Positions 38,258 to 42,397 of a DNA stretch of 64,000 nucleotides are shown piece after piece. The notes beneath the pieces were generated by a model. That model saw only the letters and a list, made by a program, of their open reading frames with translations, was not told where the DNA came from and made no database searches. Every line of letters starts with the position of its first letter. The first letter of the stretch is position 1. The stretch is from positions 26,085 to 90,084 of the IMG/VR virus record IMGVR_UViG_3300022602_000058; one strand, written 5' to 3'. The stretch comes from a virus. The position numbers were made by a program, and so were the translations under genes.

Positions 38258-38293
38258 TTCCTATATAGTATATTCCTTACAAGGACAAATCAA

Positions 38294-38377
38294 TAAAAAA
38301 CTCCTGAGTGTTATGATTTGTGTGAATAATATCAATACCATTCGCAGAAAGCTCATGCGAAAAGAACACTCAGGAGC
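38294..38377 (-). ncRNA. Predicted structured small RNA divergent from, and partly antisense to, the HNH nuclease mRNA 5' end
   Basis: 12-bp perfect inverted repeat 38301-38312/38365-38376; inner hairpin 38341-38361; T-tract on the minus strand; TAAATA 5 nt before the predicted +1; 38321-38338 matches gene start 38389-38406 at 17/18. Confidence 0.6.
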
Positions 38378-38390
38378 ATAAGTATTTATG
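38377..38390. promoter_or_regulatory. Bidirectional late-promoter quasi-palindrome CATAAGTATTTATG
   Basis: TAAGTA on + lies 5 nt before the GTG; TAAATA on - lies 5 nt before the RNA stem. Confidence 0.6.
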
Positions 38391-39085
38391 TGAATAATAT
38401 TAATACTCAAGAAATCTCCCATTATCAAAAAAATAAGCTCAAATATAATGAATCAAGTCGTGCCTACTATCAAAAGCATAAAGATAGAATAAAAGAAAAA
38501 GTAAGGCAGTATAACAAGGTTAATAAGGAGGCTGTTAATCAATCAAAGAAAAGGTATTATAGAGAAACAAAAGAAGCTAGAATTGCTTATTATGAATTAA
38601 ATAGAAAGCGTTTTGAAGAAGCGGCGCGGGTTCGTTATCGCGAGAATAGAGAAAGACTCCTTGCAATACAAAAACGATATTCAAGTAGTAATATAGGAAA
38701 AGAAAAGAGACAAAAGAGATCTCGCGAACGGTACCATAATGATCCCGTTTTCAAATTGACATACAGTATACGTGCAAGAATAAACATGGCTCTAAGAAGC
38801 TCTAGTACTCGAAAGAAAAATAATATTATAGAGTTATTAGGGTGTAGTATTGAACAGTTAAAAGACCATATTGAAAAGCAATGGACGTCAGGTATGTCAT
38901 GGGATAATCATACAAACAGCGGGTGGCATATAGATCATATTAAACCCTGCGCAGCATACAATTTAACAGATATTGAACAACAGAAAGAGTGTTTTAATTA
39001 TAAAAACCTTAGACCTATATGGGGAACAGATAACAGTTCAAAAGGTTCTATATATTGTGGCATACGTTATAGGTATAATTCTTAA
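38390..39085 (+). CDS. HNH-family homing endonuclease
   Basis: Basic helical N-terminal repeats; GWHIDHIKPC..CFNYKNLRPIWGTDNSSKG. Confidence 0.88.
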   Translation: MNNINTQEISHYQKNKLKYNESSRAYYQKHKDRIKEKVRQYNKVNKEAVNQSKKRYYRETKEARIAYYELNRKRFEEAARVRYRENRERLLAIQKRYSSSNIGKEKRQKRSRERYHNDPVFKLTYSIRARINMALRSSSTRKKNNIIELLGCSIEQLKDHIEKQWTSGMSWDNHTNSGWHIDHIKPCAAYNLTDIEQQKECFNYKNLRPIWGTDNSSKGSIYCGIRYRYNS

Positions 39086-39086
39086 C

Positions 39087-39752
39087 TTAATTAATTTCAG
39101 CCACATGATGATCAAATGTCACTTGATCATACAGCCTGAATTTTGCTCTTAGCTCAGCAAAGGAAATAGGTTTAGAACATATTTCAACACCAACATCCAT
39201 TGTCTTTGCCTTATAGAGAAGCTTTCCGAGCTCAGACTTATATAGATTACCATGAGAATGACTATGAAGCTGCCAAGCTCCTTTATGCTGACCGTTCCAG
39301 GTAGCCTGTGCATAATGACACATGACAATAGCCTGTCCATTCACTACAACCTCGAGATAGTTTGGAACAAAGTGAATTAGCTTCTCATGGCCATTAACAT
39401 TGAGAACATTCTCATGTAATGAATCTAGGATCTGTTTGTACCCTGCCTGATGGTTACCAGGGAGAATATAGAGCTCTTTAAAGTTAAGTCTGTTAAAAAG
39501 CTTTAACAACCTCTCATCAGCTTTGTATCCAAAGATAGTATCACCTAAAAGGAAGCCAATAGTGTTCTTATTAGCTTTTGAGTTCCAGTTTTTAATTAGA
39601 CCCTCATCATGCTCCTCAGAACTGTTATACCCTCTGGTCTTCCAGATAGGAACATCCCATTTTGGATCATGACCATAGTGCATGCAGCCCCAGAACAGAA
39701 CATTATGATCTGTTGAGCTAACCTTTACAGGTTTATAAAATACATCCTTCAT
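39087..39752 (-). CDS. Calcineurin-like metallophosphoesterase
   Basis: GCMHYGH, LLGD, PGNH, MCHY, HSHSH, DVGVE; start taken at MKDVFY after TTGAAG-N17-TACTAT. Confidence 0.85.
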   Translation of the reverse strand: MKDVFYKPVKVSSTDHNVLFWGCMHYGHDPKWDVPIWKTRGYNSSEEHDEGLIKNWNSKANKNTIGFLLGDTIFGYKADERLLKLFNRLNFKELYILPGNHQAGYKQILDSLHENVLNVNGHEKLIHFVPNYLEVVVNGQAIVMCHYAQATWNGQHKGAWQLHSHSHGNLYKSELGKLLYKAKTMDVGVEICSKPISFAELRAKFRLYDQVTFDHHVAEIN

Positions 39753-39790
39753 ACCAATAATAGTATATCCAACCCTAGGACACTTCAAGT

Positions 39791-40181: not shown

Positions 40182-40527
40182 TACCTAAAAGCTTTTTGCA
40201 CAAATTATTACAAGAGATCCTATACTCACACTCCATAGGATCTCTTGCCTCAATGGCATTGAAATACTGCTCATCATTCTCAATAAACTCTTCTTTTAAC
40301 TGCTTTTTAAAATCAGGGTTGAGCTTAGCACTAATCAACTCAAGAATAGGTTTAACATCTAGATCTGATAAATGTAAAGTAATTTCAGAGTTATCATATT
40401 CTGAACCATAATTAAACTCAAGCTTTAGAGTTACAGGAGGATGATAGAGATCACCAAAAGGTTCCCCGGTAAAGTCAGAAAAGTAAGTTACTTCTTCGTG
40501 TTGTTTTGGAACTAATATTTTTTTCAT
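40168..40527 (-). CDS. Hypothetical protein
   Basis: 119 aa ORF, ATGA-coupled to the upstream gene. Confidence 0.65.
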   Translation of the reverse strand: MKKILVPKQHEEVTYFSDFTGEPFGDLYHPPVTLKLEFNYGSEYDNSEITLHLSDLDVKPILELISAKLNPDFKKQLKEEFIENDEQYFNAIEARDPMECEYRISCNNLCKKLLGNEIP

Positions 40528-41408
40528 GATTTGTTTAAAGAGTTGTAGATGTCATCATAAGCTCCAAGAGAAGCATACTGTTTCTTTTTTAATGCTTTCT
40601 GCTCCTCTTGGAACTTTCTTTCTGATTCTTGATAAAAGTTCTCTACTCCTGTATTGATGATATTATAGGTACCATCTTCTAGGATTTCAAGAACTTGTTG
40701 AAGACCACAATCAATATCAATACAAAGTCCCTTATTTCGAGTCTCCTCTATATCAATACCATGACGCATGGGTGTATGGCCATAGACCTGCTTAATACCT
40801 GATTGATCATTCCAGTATGAACCTGTATAGGGTTCTTGAAAATGATCTCGCCAAACCGCACCACCGACCCGATGAATGCCCCCCCTACACTTTCCAGCTC
40901 CAGCTAGTTCTTTACTAAAGATTCTCGCATCAAAATCCTGTTGTATCTTCTTGAGCTTAATATTAATTATCTCATTATCCATACCATAAGGCGGGCTTGA
41001 GAACCAAAACGGATGAAAGCCAGCGTGTGAAAACCAAAAACCATTTTCATAATGAGCAAATTTGAGCTTATCCCAGTCTTCATTAGTCATGATTCTGTTA
41101 ATAGCGTCATCCTTCTGCGGGGTATAACCTATGCATTTATAAATTTGATCGCCGATATTAGAGCCAGGACGAATATTTTTATAGTGATAGCTCAAATCAT
41201 GATTACCAATAAGAGCGACGTGATTAGCTTTGTTTATAAATCCTTTAAGCCATTTAGCCGTTTGATCAGCATTAATAGCAGAATCACCAAAGTCATCGAA
41301 GAAATCCCCGACTGCAACAATAGTGTGCGTATCAGTGTACATTTCAACAATATGCTGTGCCTCGACGATATGGTTATGAATATCACCCACGCATAGTAAT
41401 TTAGCCAT
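40524..41408 (-). CDS. Calcineurin-like metallophosphoesterase
   Basis: GDIHN, GDFFD, GNHD, SHAG, YGHT. Confidence 0.9.
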   Translation of the reverse strand: MAKLLCVGDIHNHIVEAQHIVEMYTDTHTIVAVGDFFDDFGDSAINADQTAKWLKGFINKANHVALIGNHDLSYHYKNIRPGSNIGDQIYKCIGYTPQKDDAINRIMTNEDWDKLKFAHYENGFWFSHAGFHPFWFSSPPYGMDNEIINIKLKKIQQDFDARIFSKELAGAGKCRGGIHRVGGAVWRDHFQEPYTGSYWNDQSGIKQVYGHTPMRHGIDIEETRNKGLCIDIDCGLQQVLEILEDGTYNIINTGVENFYQESERKFQEEQKALKKKQYASLGAYDDIYNSLNKS

Positions 41409-41442
41409 GTATAAAGTATAGATACTTTAGGCGGAAAGGCAA

Positions 41443-41524
41443 TAAAAAACTCTCGAGACGATATTGATGTGTCATGACCAATATTAGTACAAACGACTAT
41501 AGTCGCAAAGTTCGTCTCGAGAGC
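41443..41524 (-). ncRNA. Predicted structured small RNA divergent from, and partly antisense to, the LAGLIDADG nuclease mRNA 5' end
   Basis: 12-bp perfect inverted repeat 41450-41461/41512-41523; inner hairpin CGAC-TATA-GTCG 41494-41505; T-tract on the minus strand; TAAGTA 5 nt before the predicted +1; 41470-41490 matches 41536-41556 at 19/21. Confidence 0.6.
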
Positions 41525-41537
41525 ATAAATACTTATG
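41524..41537. promoter_or_regulatory. Bidirectional late-promoter quasi-palindrome CATAAATACTTATG
   Basis: Exact reverse complement of 38377-38390; TAAATA on +, TAAGTA on -. Confidence 0.6.
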
Positions 41538-41539
41538 TC

Positions 41540-42397
41540 ATGACAAATATTATTACTACACGAGAACTCTCTTTCAATAAAAAGAATAAATTAACATCTG
41601 AACAAAAGCTGCAGATATGTAGGCGGTACATAGAGGGGGAAAGCTGTGAAAGTTTATCACGTACATTTAATGTATGGTGCGGTACGGTGGTTCGCCTACT
41701 AAAACGTAATAACATTCAAAGACGGGATCATAGAACATCATGTTCAAGATACAAATTTAATCATAGATTTTTTACAAATATTGATACAGAGGCTAAAGCA
41801 TATTTTATTGGATTTGTATTAGCTGACGGTTGTGTGCGCCGCGATTGCCTAACAATCCAATTACATCAACAAGACACGCATATTCTTGAATATTTTATTA
41901 GCTGTATAGAAGGTGACTGTAAACTCTACTCTAGTAAACAAAGAAACGGGGACGTACACCCTGTATTAAAGCTGTCTTCTCTACAAATGATTACCGATCT
42001 AAAGCAGCACGGTATAATAGAAAACAAAACATACAATTTAACAACATTACCCGCAATACCTGAACATTTAGAAAGACATTTCTGGAGAGGGGTTATGGAT
42101 GGTGATGGGTGCGTGTACTTATCTAAAGATAAAAAACAATTTCAAGCGTTTATATGTAATTATCTGAAGCACCCTATCGATGCATTTGAATCTTTTTTAC
42201 TTAGGAATAATATCGAAACACGAGGTATAATAAAATACCCTGGTGTTTATAACTTAACACTATGTAACAAATATGCTCTTAAATTTCTTAAGTTAATTTA
42301 TACAGATTCTGATCCCGAACTCTGCTTAAAGAGAAAATATGAAAAGTATTTAAAATATACAGACTCAGGATATGTCAATGAAGAAAGTAGAGAATAG
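41540..42397 (+). CDS. LAGLIDADG homing endonuclease with N-terminal HTH
   Basis: KAYFIGFVLADGCV and RHFWRGVMDGDGCV; likely start is ATG 41540 (the ORF-track start 41474 lies in the upstream duplicated segment). Confidence 0.88.
   Translation: MTNIITTRELSFNKKNKLTSEQKLQICRRYIEGESCESLSRTFNVWCGTVVRLLKRNNIQRRDHRTSCSRYKFNHRFFTNIDTEAKAYFIGFVLADGCVRRDCLTIQLHQQDTHILEYFISCIEGDCKLYSSKQRNGDVHPVLKLSSLQMITDLKQHGIIENKTYNLTTLPAIPEHLERHFWRGVMDGDGCVYLSKDKKQFQAFICNYLKHPIDAFESFLLRNNIETRGIIKYPGVYNLTLCNKYALKFLKLIYTDSDPELCLKRKYEKYLKYTDSGYVNEESRE

What the first reader, a model, noticed from the sequence alone, without database searches (positions are those of the whole stretch)
38291..42397. Shared cassette on two unrelated homing endonucleases: divergent structured small RNA whose loop is complementary to the nuclease's own mRNA 5' end
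Seen: an HNH gene (38390) and a LAGLIDADG gene (41540), both inverted relative to their neighbours, have the same ~100-bp upstream architecture. On + it reads CAATAAAAAA, CTC-starting 12-bp arm, TGAT, near-copy of the gene's own start, short CG-closed hairpin, AAAG, complementary arm ending GAG, 14-bp promoter quasi-palindrome, gene. The arm sequences differ between loci (CTCCTGAGTGTT vs CTCTCGAGACGA) yet each pairs perfectly, which is covariation-like. The copied segment differs and tracks each locus's own gene start. In both loci the uninterrupted match begins 1 nt before the predicted +1 of the nuclease mRNA. Inference: a conserved RNA scaffold with a variable 17-20 nt guide/antisense segment controls toxic nucleases. 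It could be a cis-linked non-overlapping antitoxin-like sRNA, or the guide for an unidentified RNA-binding effector. Established knowledge: T4 I-TevI-type control uses an RBS-sequestering hairpin within the mRNA, which is a different arrangement. I do not recognise this element as a described family.
Basis: partly seen in the sequence, partly recalled or inferred. Interest (0 to 1): 0.95.

Follow-up and report, generated by a model that had tools for sequence, protein, structure and literature searches.

The report
Antisense RNA cassette on phage homing endonucleases
Selfish nuclease genes in a group of lake-water T4-like phages carry a small portable control unit that probably makes a short antisense RNA against the start of the nuclease's own message, but no RNA data exist yet.

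Summary
Both cassettes (38291-38390, 41440-41537) have the architecture described. I found 16 copies (15 distinct) in 9 of 26 related viral records searched. They sit upstream of HNH-like, LAGLIDADG and GIY-YIG homing endonuclease genes.

Comparative evidence:
- All 9 scored outer-stem pairs show compensatory changes.
- All 6 in-stem mismatches are A.C on the nuclease strand, which is G.U on the opposite strand. The hairpin is therefore selected as RNA on the strand that also carries the U-run.
- Each loop tracks its own gene's first 10-21 nt, starting at -1 or 0 of the predicted late-promoter start (0 of 100,000 permutations did as well).
- The 14-mer forms two back-to-back T4-type late promoters in 8 of 16 cassettes, against 1 of 28 other late-promoter-like sites in this genome.

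On the phage's main strand the same element reads hairpin, U-run, sigma70-like promoter, next gene. That is a PeSL-like insulator.

Best reading (about 0.55): a portable module encoding a divergent, non-overlapping antisense sRNA that damps translation of a near-leaderless nuclease mRNA. The module also carries its own target, the first 6-12 codons.

No Rfam match and no description in the searched literature. No expression data, so transcript and function are inferred. This scan's earlier notes on the element are all from this same genome.

The parts
38267..38293 (-). Sigma70-like promoter for the next phage gene (37943-38257, minus strand). The -35-like TTGATT is at 38288-38293 and the -10-like TATACT at 38267-38272.
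   Evidence: Read. The same layout (U-run, TTG, 15-18 nt, -10-like box, short leader, ORF) is seen in 16 of 16 cassettes. Not tested experimentally.
38293..38377 (-). Predicted sRNA 1, about 85 nt. Its 5' end lies opposite the first base of the 14-mer. It runs outer stem, CUUUU, inner hairpin, antisense segment, outer stem, U6.
   Evidence: Fold -27.9 kcal/mol, z -4.8. Duplex with the HNH mRNA from mRNA position 1, -27.2 kcal/mol. The transcript itself is inferred.
38301..38376 (.). Outer 12-bp stem (arms 38301-38312 and 38365-38376) enclosing a 52-nt loop.
   Evidence: Covariation across the family.
38321..38338 (+). Loop copy of the HNH gene start. On the minus-strand RNA it is the antisense segment.
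   Evidence: 17 of 18 identical to 38389-38406. The one difference gives G.U in the RNA duplex.
38341..38361 (.). Inner small hairpin followed by AAAG.
   Evidence: An inner hairpin at this place appears in the predicted folds of the 13 long-loop family members.
38377..38390 (.). 14-bp AT quasi-palindrome, read as two back-to-back T4-type late promoters. The TAAGTA box faces the HNH gene and the TAAATA box faces the hairpin.
38390..39085 (+). HNH-like free-standing homing endonuclease gene (231 aa, GTG start at the predicted +1). The mRNA 5' end 38389-38406 is the proposed target.
   Evidence: The 829 bp at 38258-39086 are absent from relatives L004 and L018, where the two flanking genes overlap.
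41415..41442 (-). Sigma70-like promoter for the metallophosphatase gene (40524-41408, minus strand). The -35-like TTGCCT is at 41437-41442 and the -10-like TATACT at 41415-41420.
41442..41524 (-). Predicted sRNA 2, about 83 nt.
   Evidence: Fold -29.0 kcal/mol, z -5.0. Duplex with the LAGLIDADG mRNA from position 1, -24.6 kcal/mol. The transcript is inferred.
41450..41523 (.). Outer 12-bp stem (arms 41450-41461 and 41512-41523) enclosing a 50-nt loop. The inner hairpin is at 41494-41505.
41470..41490 (+). Loop copy of the LAGLIDADG gene start.
   Evidence: 19 of 21 identical to 41536-41556.
41524..41537 (.). 14-bp quasi-palindrome, the exact reverse complement of the one at 38377-38390.
41540..42397 (+). 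LAGLIDADG homing endonuclease gene (285 aa from the ATG at 41540). Its first ~17 residues are not matched in the nearest LAGLIDADG relative.
   Evidence: PF14528 and phrog_4645. L019 matches residues 18-285 only.

Best explanation
The element is a portable regulatory module of free-standing homing endonuclease genes (HEGs) in a lineage of freshwater T4-like phages.

The HEG sits antisense to the phage's own genes. A 14-bp AT palindrome holds two back-to-back T4-type late promoters. One drives a near-leaderless HEG mRNA, with the start codon 0-4 nt after +1. The other drives a 55-85-nt RNA that is essentially one long hairpin ending in a U-run.

The hairpin's loop is complementary to the first 10-21 nt of the HEG mRNA, start codon included. 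Pairing is proposed to block ribosome binding, and perhaps to trigger decay, so nuclease output is damped.

The module also carries the target itself (+1 to about +38, the first 6-12 codons). It can therefore be fused to different nuclease bodies.

On the phage's main strand the same hairpin plus U-run stops transcripts that run antisense through the HEG. A sigma70-like promoter placed directly behind it restarts the next phage gene.

Shown here: the architecture, its conservation, RNA-level selection on the strand opposite the HEG, loop/target co-variation, and enrichment of the two-way promoter. Inferred: that the short RNA is made from its own promoter, and that it represses.
For: (1) Family. 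16 copies (15 distinct) occur in 9 of 26 viral records searched with model R1. They were parsed.

(2) Outer stem. 9 of 9 scored pairs have compensatory changes and 96.1% of cells are paired. 0 of 500 shuffles reached the score, and slid controls gave 28-47% paired.

(3) Strand. All 6 isolated in-stem mismatches (L189, L190, L191, L034, L042, L062) are A.C or C.A on the HEG strand, which is G.U on the opposite strand. None is G.T.

(4) Loop tracks own target.
- The summed own-match score is 169 against a permuted mean of 90 (sd 8.6, maximum 140). 0 of 100,000 permutations reached it, using 13 non-redundant copies.
- Own duplex energy averages -25.2 against -15.6 kcal/mol for cross pairs, again 0 of 100,000.
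- The match starts at -1 in 14 of 16 and at 0 in 2 of 16, relative to the predicted +1.
- Homologous HNH genes with different 5' ends each have a matching loop.

(5) Promoters.
- TAA[AG]TA lies 4-8 nt before the start codon of ORFs of at least 60 aa at 30 sites in this genome. My own estimate is about 0.5 expected by chance.
- The mirror promoter, in exact register, is present in 8 of 16 cassettes against 1 of 28 other such sites.
- The 3' arm abuts the 14-mer in 16 of 16, so the mirror +1 is the base just before the stem.

(6) Loop size. Loops of 24-52 nt are far larger than a terminator needs (recalled general knowledge).

(7) Shared N-terminal codons on HNH, LAGLIDADG and GIY-YIG bodies.

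(8) Precedent. Divergent sRNAs with 16-21 nt of complementarity repress toxins, including the DNase RalR (PMC4041452 and PMC3919570, passages read).
Against: - There is no transcript evidence of any kind.
- Points 2 and 3 and the U-run are equally expected for a plain terminator of main-strand read-through.
- 8 of 16 copies lack a consensus mirror promoter. They read TATATA, AAATTA, ATAATA or TAATTA instead.
- The U-run is missing in 2 of 16 (L182, L195) and interrupted in 3 (L188, L189, L244).
- Contiguous matches are only 10-12 nt in several copies. L182's loop matches L195's gene start better than its own (14 against 10), and L188 and L189 only tie with another copy.
- Both promoters would fire late together, so the regulatory logic (a fixed damper rather than a switch) is unclear.
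- A proposed small 'presentation' stem around the anti-start region was not better than shuffled spacers (265 of 1000).
- Two copies sit on truncated ORFs (44 and 72 aa).
- Other HEGs in the same genome, and a LAGLIDADG homologue at the same site in a relative, do without the cassette.
Confidence: 0.55

Rival explanations
1. PeSL-like insulator only. The hairpin plus U-run is the terminator for phage transcripts that read antisense through the inserted HEG, followed by a sigma70-like restart promoter. There is no separate sRNA gene. Any RNA carrying the antisense loop is just the 3' end of that read-through transcript. It may survive as a stable 3' fragment and act the same way, or do nothing.
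For: The order hairpin, U-run, TTG, 15-18 nt, -10-like box, ORF is seen in 16 of 16 copies. Stem covariation, the G.U strand bias and the U-run all fit a terminator. The mirror late promoter is non-consensus in 8 of 16. PeSLs, a terminator stem-loop plus a sigma70-like promoter, are established mobile cassettes of T4-like phages (PMC2839356 and PMC4122927, abstracts and passages read). Module boundaries lie inside promoter sequence.
Against: A terminator needs neither a 24-52-nt loop nor a loop that co-varies with the neighbouring gene's 5' end. A read-through antisense RNA already holds a perfect complement of the whole HEG mRNA, so a second, imperfect copy would be redundant. The mirror promoter in exact register is enriched (8 of 16 against 1 of 28).
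Confidence: 0.27
2. DNA-level feature. The loop copy and the gene start are direct repeats left by, or used for, recombination. This could be capture of a promoter-proximal duplication, PeSL-type shuffling, or deletion of the promoter. No RNA pairing role is involved.
For: The two copies are direct repeats about 65 nt apart. Weak similarity continues a few bases upstream into the promoter, which suggests origin by duplication. T4-type phages recombine on short homologies (PMC2839356 discussion, passage read). The cassettes have multiplied within one genome: 6 in 30 kb of G001, two of them nearly identical.
Against: A relic would decay. Instead, copy and target have changed together in lineages whose stems and inner hairpins differ completely. 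Similarity is sharp from -1/+1 onward and poor upstream, which matches the transcript rather than a DNA unit. One of the three window mismatches between copy and target gives G.U in the RNA duplex.
Confidence: 0.08
3. Protein operator. The repeated segment is a binding site for the nuclease itself or for a phage regulator. This would be autorepression as for I-TevI, whose operator overlapping its late promoter resembles its homing site.
For: I-TevI, and probably I-TevII and I-TevIII, repress their own late or middle promoters through such operators (PMC2988022, passages read). The repeated segment overlaps the promoter/+1 region.
Against: Three unrelated nuclease families with different DNA-binding parts would each need two matching sites in the same register. 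The repeats are direct rather than symmetric. The G.U bias points to RNA. No homing site is known to compare with.
Confidence: 0.05
4. Guide RNA. The hairpin RNA is the guide of an unidentified RNA-binding effector.
For: The scaffold-plus-variable-segment layout only.
Against: No conserved partner gene accompanies the cassette, and the neighbours differ at every site. The variable segment always matches the adjacent gene itself. There is no Rfam match, including to HNH-associated guide RNAs.
Confidence: 0.03

Closest known systems
PeSL cassettes (promoter-early stem-loop) of T4-like phages (Arbiol et al. 2010, PMC2839356; Comeau et al. 2014, PMC4122927)
   Same: A small composite unit in T4-like phages. 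A terminator stem-loop sits next to a sigma70-like promoter, flanks dispensable inserted genes, insulates them transcriptionally, is repeated within a genome, and has exchange points inside promoter sequence.
   Different: PeSL stem-loops as described are short terminators. The passages I read mention no late promoter and no loop homologous to the neighbouring gene. Here the loop is 24-52 nt and co-varies with the inserted gene's 5' end, a two-way late promoter is attached, and the inserted gene is inverted. There is no sequence similarity to the published PeSL consensus forms quoted in PMC4122927.
Type I toxin-antitoxin pairs with divergent, non-overlapping sRNAs: TisB/IstR-1, ShoB/OhsC, ZorO/OrzO, and the DNase pair RalR/RalA (PMC3919570, PMC4041452)
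   Same: An sRNA gene lies next to the toxic gene, on the opposite strand and without overlap. Complementarity to the mRNA is 16-21 nt and blocks translation. RalR is a DNase.
   Different: Those are bacterial or prophage loci, mostly with tiny membrane toxins, and they target 5' UTR or coding regions. Here the targets are 190-290-aa homing endonucleases of lytic phages. The target is the extreme 5' end of a near-leaderless mRNA. Both transcripts come from one shared palindromic late promoter, and the antisense lies in the loop of the terminator hairpin. An addiction (post-segregational killing) role is neither shown nor needed.
CfrI antisense RNA of cyanophage S-PM2 (Millard et al. 2010; seen only as described in PMC2984593 and PMC5931967)
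   Same: An antisense RNA associated with a homing endonuclease gene in a T4-like phage, co-expressed with it.
   Different: CfrI is an ~225-nt true cis-antisense transcript that overlaps the endonuclease gene and psbA. It is not a non-overlapping hairpin RNA with a duplicated target segment.
RBS-sequestering hairpins and late-promoter control of T4 I-TevI, I-TevII, I-TevIII, segB and Aeh1 mobE (review PMC2988022)
   Same: Homing endonuclease output is limited after transcription, and a late promoter drives the translatable mRNA.
   Different: Those hairpins lie in the same mRNA, hide a Shine-Dalgarno site, and form only in early or middle read-through transcripts. Here there is no Shine-Dalgarno site, the hairpin lies wholly upstream of the promoter, and it is selected on the other strand.

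Membership tests
PeSL (promoter-early stem-loop) cassette | Stem-loop that can act as an intrinsic terminator on the phage's main strand | tested here: inconclusive
   A 10-13-bp stem is present in 16 of 16. The U-run directly behind it has at least 5 U in 7 copies, follows CC in 4, is interrupted in 3 and is absent in 2. The loops of 24-52 nt are atypically large. Termination was not measured.
PeSL (promoter-early stem-loop) cassette | Adjacent strong sigma70-like (early) promoter serving the next gene | tested here: met
   TTG of a -35-like box lies directly after the U-run, then 15-18 nt, then a -10-like box and an ORF of at least 61 codons, in 16 of 16 by inspection. 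Strength was not measured.
PeSL (promoter-early stem-loop) cassette | Repeated in T4-like genomes, flanking variable genes, with exchange inside the cassette | tested here: met
   There are 2 copies in G000 and 6 in G001. The HEG plus cassette is absent from relatives L004 and L018, where the flanking genes overlap. A related contig replaces 38273-39104 with 467 other letters. Mini-circles are not testable here.
Type I TA-like divergent antisense sRNA | sRNA gene adjacent, on the opposite strand, not overlapping the target gene | tested here: inconclusive
   A mirror late-promoter box in exact register is present in 8 of 16 against 1 of 28 background sites, together with hairpin and U-run. No transcript was observed.
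Type I TA-like divergent antisense sRNA | 10-25 nt complementarity to the target mRNA that is specific to the cognate pair | tested here: met
   Matches of 10-21 nt start at mRNA position -1 or +1. Own pairs beat cross pairs in 0 of 100,000 permutations.
Type I TA-like divergent antisense sRNA | Toxic protein whose expression is repressed by the sRNA | not testable with these tools
   The targets are nucleases (PF14528, PF01541+NUMOD3, HNH-like motif). Neither toxicity nor repression was assayed.
T4-type RBS-sequestering hairpin (I-TevI class) | Hairpin within the HEG's own transcript that hides the Shine-Dalgarno site or AUG, with the late promoter inside it | tested here: not met
   The hairpin lies entirely upstream of the late promoter. 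The start codon is 0-4 nt from +1 with no Shine-Dalgarno site. In-stem mismatches pair only on the opposite strand (6 of 6).
Any Rfam 15 family | Match at or above the family's gathering score | tested here: not met
   Window 37500-43000 at E up to 10 gave 8 hits, all below gathering. The best one over the cassette is RF01089 at 18.7 against 45 bits. In 13 further cassette loci at gathering threshold, only two tRNAs appeared, elsewhere in the loci.
CfrI-type cis-antisense RNA | Antisense transcript overlapping the endonuclease coding region | tested here: not met
   The predicted RNA ends before the gene. Complementarity comes from a separate duplicated segment.

The most novel reading that the evidence does not exclude
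A natural 'plug-in' self-silencing module. One about 170-bp unit carries an antisense sRNA gene, a shared two-way late promoter, the sRNA's own target (a leaderless start region plus the first codons) and a restart promoter for the host operon. Any nuclease body fused behind it gains damped, late-only expression and can sit backwards inside a phage operon without polar damage. This would be the first antisense-RNA control system dedicated to homing endonucleases and shared across the HNH, LAGLIDADG and GIY-YIG families. It would also be a phage-borne analogue of type I antitoxin RNAs that travels with its target.
Probability: 0.45. Interest if true: 0.8.

Novelty: new variant of a known kind. 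Interest (0 to 1): 0.7.

Why it matters
How free-standing homing endonucleases are kept from harming the phages they ride in is an open point. The T4 review PMC2988022 (passages read) says that for most free-standing endonucleases the translational controls are 'not obvious'.

A dedicated antisense RNA that moves with the nuclease gene would be a new answer. It would show that selfish genes can bring a complete regulatory kit: their own brake, their own target and a repair promoter for the host operon. It would also add a compact natural scaffold, a hairpin with an exchangeable 10-21-nt loop, to the known antisense designs.

The finding extends the PeSL idea of mobile regulatory cassettes in T4-like phages from early promoters to late, two-way ones. 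The claim is directly testable with reporters and compensatory mutants, even though the phages are uncultured.

Tried and rejected
- Near-identical DNA in the phage collection: none.
- Metagenome pattern scan. In one search my stem filter flagged 17 sites. I kept 8 by eye (window x2, L001/L043/L160, L034, L042, L062). I dropped 9 (L057, L058, L071, L081, L083, L102, L134, L161, L173) that had weak stems and no loop copy.
- Viral pattern scan for the 14-mer: 33 stretches, 4 with the architecture.
- Viral pattern scan for the shared N-terminal codons: 48 stretches. Seven (L043, L213, L214, L218, L222, L230 and one more) hold 8 cassette sites, all with the full cassette. The rest are unrelated contexts.
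- R1 hits L183, L184, L186 and L196 (E 0.06-0.5): judged false by reading.
- Other relatives without the cassette. Only the already known G001 locus has the cassette. A model-free search for a gene-start copy upstream in those loci found nothing with arms. More distant HNH and LAGLIDADG relatives L019-L030 also lack it.
- A small 'presentation' stem around the anti-start region: not better than shuffled spacers (265 of 1000).
- A second pairing between the sRNA 3' end and the conserved codons at +28 to +38: considered and dropped, because the arms vary while that block does not.
- Other targets of the two window loops in the 90-kb genome: only scattered AT-rich 11-13-mers.
- L188's G.G at the 13th position: left out of the mismatch count because it lies beyond the 12-bp stem.
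- L042/L062 proteins: they look GIY-YIG-like by eye, but there is no Pfam, NCBIfam or PDB sequence match, so I left them unclassified.
- HNH profile against PDB sequences: no meaningful hit.
- Expression: no RNA holder listed among 20 runs, so nothing can be said about expression.
- Parts of the stretch without contig cover carry no meaning.
- Supplementary files of the papers were not opened. PeSL sequence lists there could bear on how different this cassette is from PeSLs.

Full report
**What is in the window.** The window is bases 26085-90084 of a 90-kb, 35% G+C viral record that CheckV rates 41% complete. It has a T4-type tail sheath, and earlier notes of this scan report UvsW, UvsX and a split DNA polymerase. 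Two genes lie backwards in a minus-strand block. One is an HNH-like gene (38390-39085). The other is a LAGLIDADG gene (41540-42397; PF14528 and phrog_4645). The two 14-mers are exact reverse complements of each other. Both strands fold far better than shuffles. The short motifs alone are at chance level. A covariance model of the whole element, however, finds exactly these two copies in the genome.

**The promoter.** The box TAA[AG]TA lies 4-8 nt before the start codon of 30 ORFs of at least 60 aa in this genome, many of them structural. I reckon about 0.5 such sites would be expected by chance. The 14-mer contains such a box on each strand, sharing two bases. The predicted starts are the two end bases of the 14-mer.

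**A family.** Four routes gave 16 copies (15 distinct) in 9 of 26 viral records:
- flanking-gene relatives;
- a pattern scan for the 14-mer;
- a pattern scan for the shared first codons;
- model R1 run on whole records.

One record, G001, holds six copies within 30 kb, two of them nearly identical. The downstream genes are:
- ten intact HNH-like genes, with the motif invariant in all ten and phrog_1035 hits;
- two truncated ORFs;
- one LAGLIDADG gene;
- one GIY-YIG plus NUMOD3 gene;
- two unclassified genes.

Three copies (L034, L042, L062) lack the inner hairpin and have 24-28-nt loops. The cassette is narrow in range. It was absent from 79 other loci of the wider HNH family sampled, and from other homing endonuclease genes of this same genome.

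**RNA-level selection, and on which strand.** All 9 scored stem pairs show compensatory changes, 96.1% of cells pair, and no shuffle or slid control comes near. The six isolated in-stem mismatches are all A.C on the nuclease strand, that is G.U on the other strand. The U-run is on that same other strand. The hairpin is therefore an RNA feature of the strand opposite the nuclease gene.

**The loop tracks the neighbour's 5' end.** In every copy a 10-21-nt stretch of the loop, beginning 5-8 nt into it, repeats the gene's own start. It begins at -1 (14 of 16) or 0 (2 of 16) of the predicted +1. Own pairs beat shuffled pairings in 100,000 of 100,000 trials, by match score and by duplex energy (-25.2 against -15.6 kcal/mol). 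Homologous HNH genes with different 5' ends each have the fitting loop, while stems and inner hairpins differ completely. Similarity falls off upstream of -1, which matches a transcript rather than a DNA unit. There are exceptions. L182's loop fits L195's start better than its own, and two other copies only tie.

**The other face.** Read along the phage's main strand, every copy is hairpin, U-run, a TTG of a -35-like box, 15-18 nt, a -10-like box, a short leader, and the next phage gene (16 of 16). Relatives L004 and L018 lack the HNH gene and its cassette, and their two flanking genes (74-90% identical to the window's) overlap. The whole 829 bp is therefore an insertion that brings its own restart promoter. 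At the LAGLIDADG site, relatives without the gene have a sigma70-like promoter there. Parts of it appear on both sides of the insertion. A related contig replaces 38273-39104 with other sequence. This is the logic of PeSL cassettes (PMC2839356, PMC4122927).

**The cassette carries its target.** Conservation runs about 35 nt into the ORFs. The HNH, LAGLIDADG and GIY-YIG proteins share an N-terminus of the type M-N-x-N-T-T-Q-E-L-S. In the GIY-YIG gene it precedes the catalytic GIY motif. In the LAGLIDADG protein the first 17 residues are unmatched in its nearest relative. This explains how one scaffold serves unrelated nucleases.

**Weighing.** Stem covariation, the G.U bias and the U-run fit either a terminator or an sRNA. 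Three findings favour a separate antisense sRNA that blocks the start of a near-leaderless mRNA:
- the oversized, co-varying loop;
- the exact abutment of stem and 14-mer (16 of 16);
- the enrichment of a mirror late promoter (8 of 16 against 1 of 28).

Four findings count against it:
- no RNA data exist;
- half of the mirror promoters are off-consensus;
- a few copies have weak U-runs;
- a presentation stem was not supported.

I put the sRNA model at 0.55. The reading 'insulator whose read-through 3' end carries the loop' gets 0.27.

**Novelty.** No Rfam family matches. Five full-text searches and the passages read found PeSLs, CfrI, T4 hairpin control and type I antitoxin RNAs, but nothing with this arrangement. 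Subscription-only papers and supplementary files were not seen.

Noticed in passing
whole genome; e.g. window 1885-1899, 4896-4909, 25846-25859: TAA[AG]TA lies 4-8 nt before the start codon of 30 ORFs of at least 60 aa. Late mRNAs of this phage would therefore be leaderless or nearly so, which is unusual for T4-like phages.
   Followed up: partly
window 38407-38425 and 41557-41575; also L182, L185, L190, L191, L244: A block of about 18 nt inside the ORFs (the codons for T-T-Q-E-L-S) is conserved at nucleotide level across HNH and LAGLIDADG genes. It loosely resembles the A-run plus arm start at the cassette's other end. Whether this marks a recombination boundary, a peptide function or an RNA site is open.
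   Followed up: partly
window 42354-42471: A 34-codon membrane-like ORF on the minus strand (start at 42471) overlaps the 3' end of the LAGLIDADG gene. The resident sigma70-like promoter seen in relatives without the gene (TTGACA at 42374-42379) is retained inside the LAGLIDADG C-terminal codons.
   Followed up: partly
G001 (record of L001), positions 431-30604: Six cassettes lie within 30 kb of one relative. Two are near-identical copies (L185, L187), one of them on an ORF cut to 44 aa. L190's ORF is cut to 72 aa. The cassettes therefore multiply within a genome and outlive their nucleases.
   Followed up: partly
L246:1501-1660: In the GIY-YIG copy, 11 nt of the inner hairpin are repeated in inverted sense at +28 to +38 of the gene. 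This gives a possible second pairing site, seen in this copy only.
   Followed up: no
L246:2238-2311 and L062:3794-3884: tRNA genes lie next to cassette-bearing nuclease genes. In L246 the tRNA overlaps the end of the GIY-YIG gene on the other strand. This is reminiscent of SegB in the T4 tRNA region.
   Followed up: no
genome 10844-11479 and 6017-6823 (before the window): Two further homing endonuclease genes of this genome, a GIY-YIG and a MobE-like HNH inside the DNA polymerase gene, have a late-promoter box 5 nt before the ATG but no hairpin cassette.
   Followed up: partly
window 38229-38379, minus strand: Weak sub-threshold Rfam hit to RF01089, the PK-repBA pseudoknot of an antisense-controlled plasmid gene (18.7 bits against a gathering score of 45, E 1.2). 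Taken as chance.
   Followed up: no
window 41474-41539: At locus 2 the loop copy's ATG (41474) is in frame with the LAGLIDADG gene, which gives an open 307-codon frame. At locus 1 and in L001 the copy is out of frame or stopped, so this looks accidental.
   Followed up: yes
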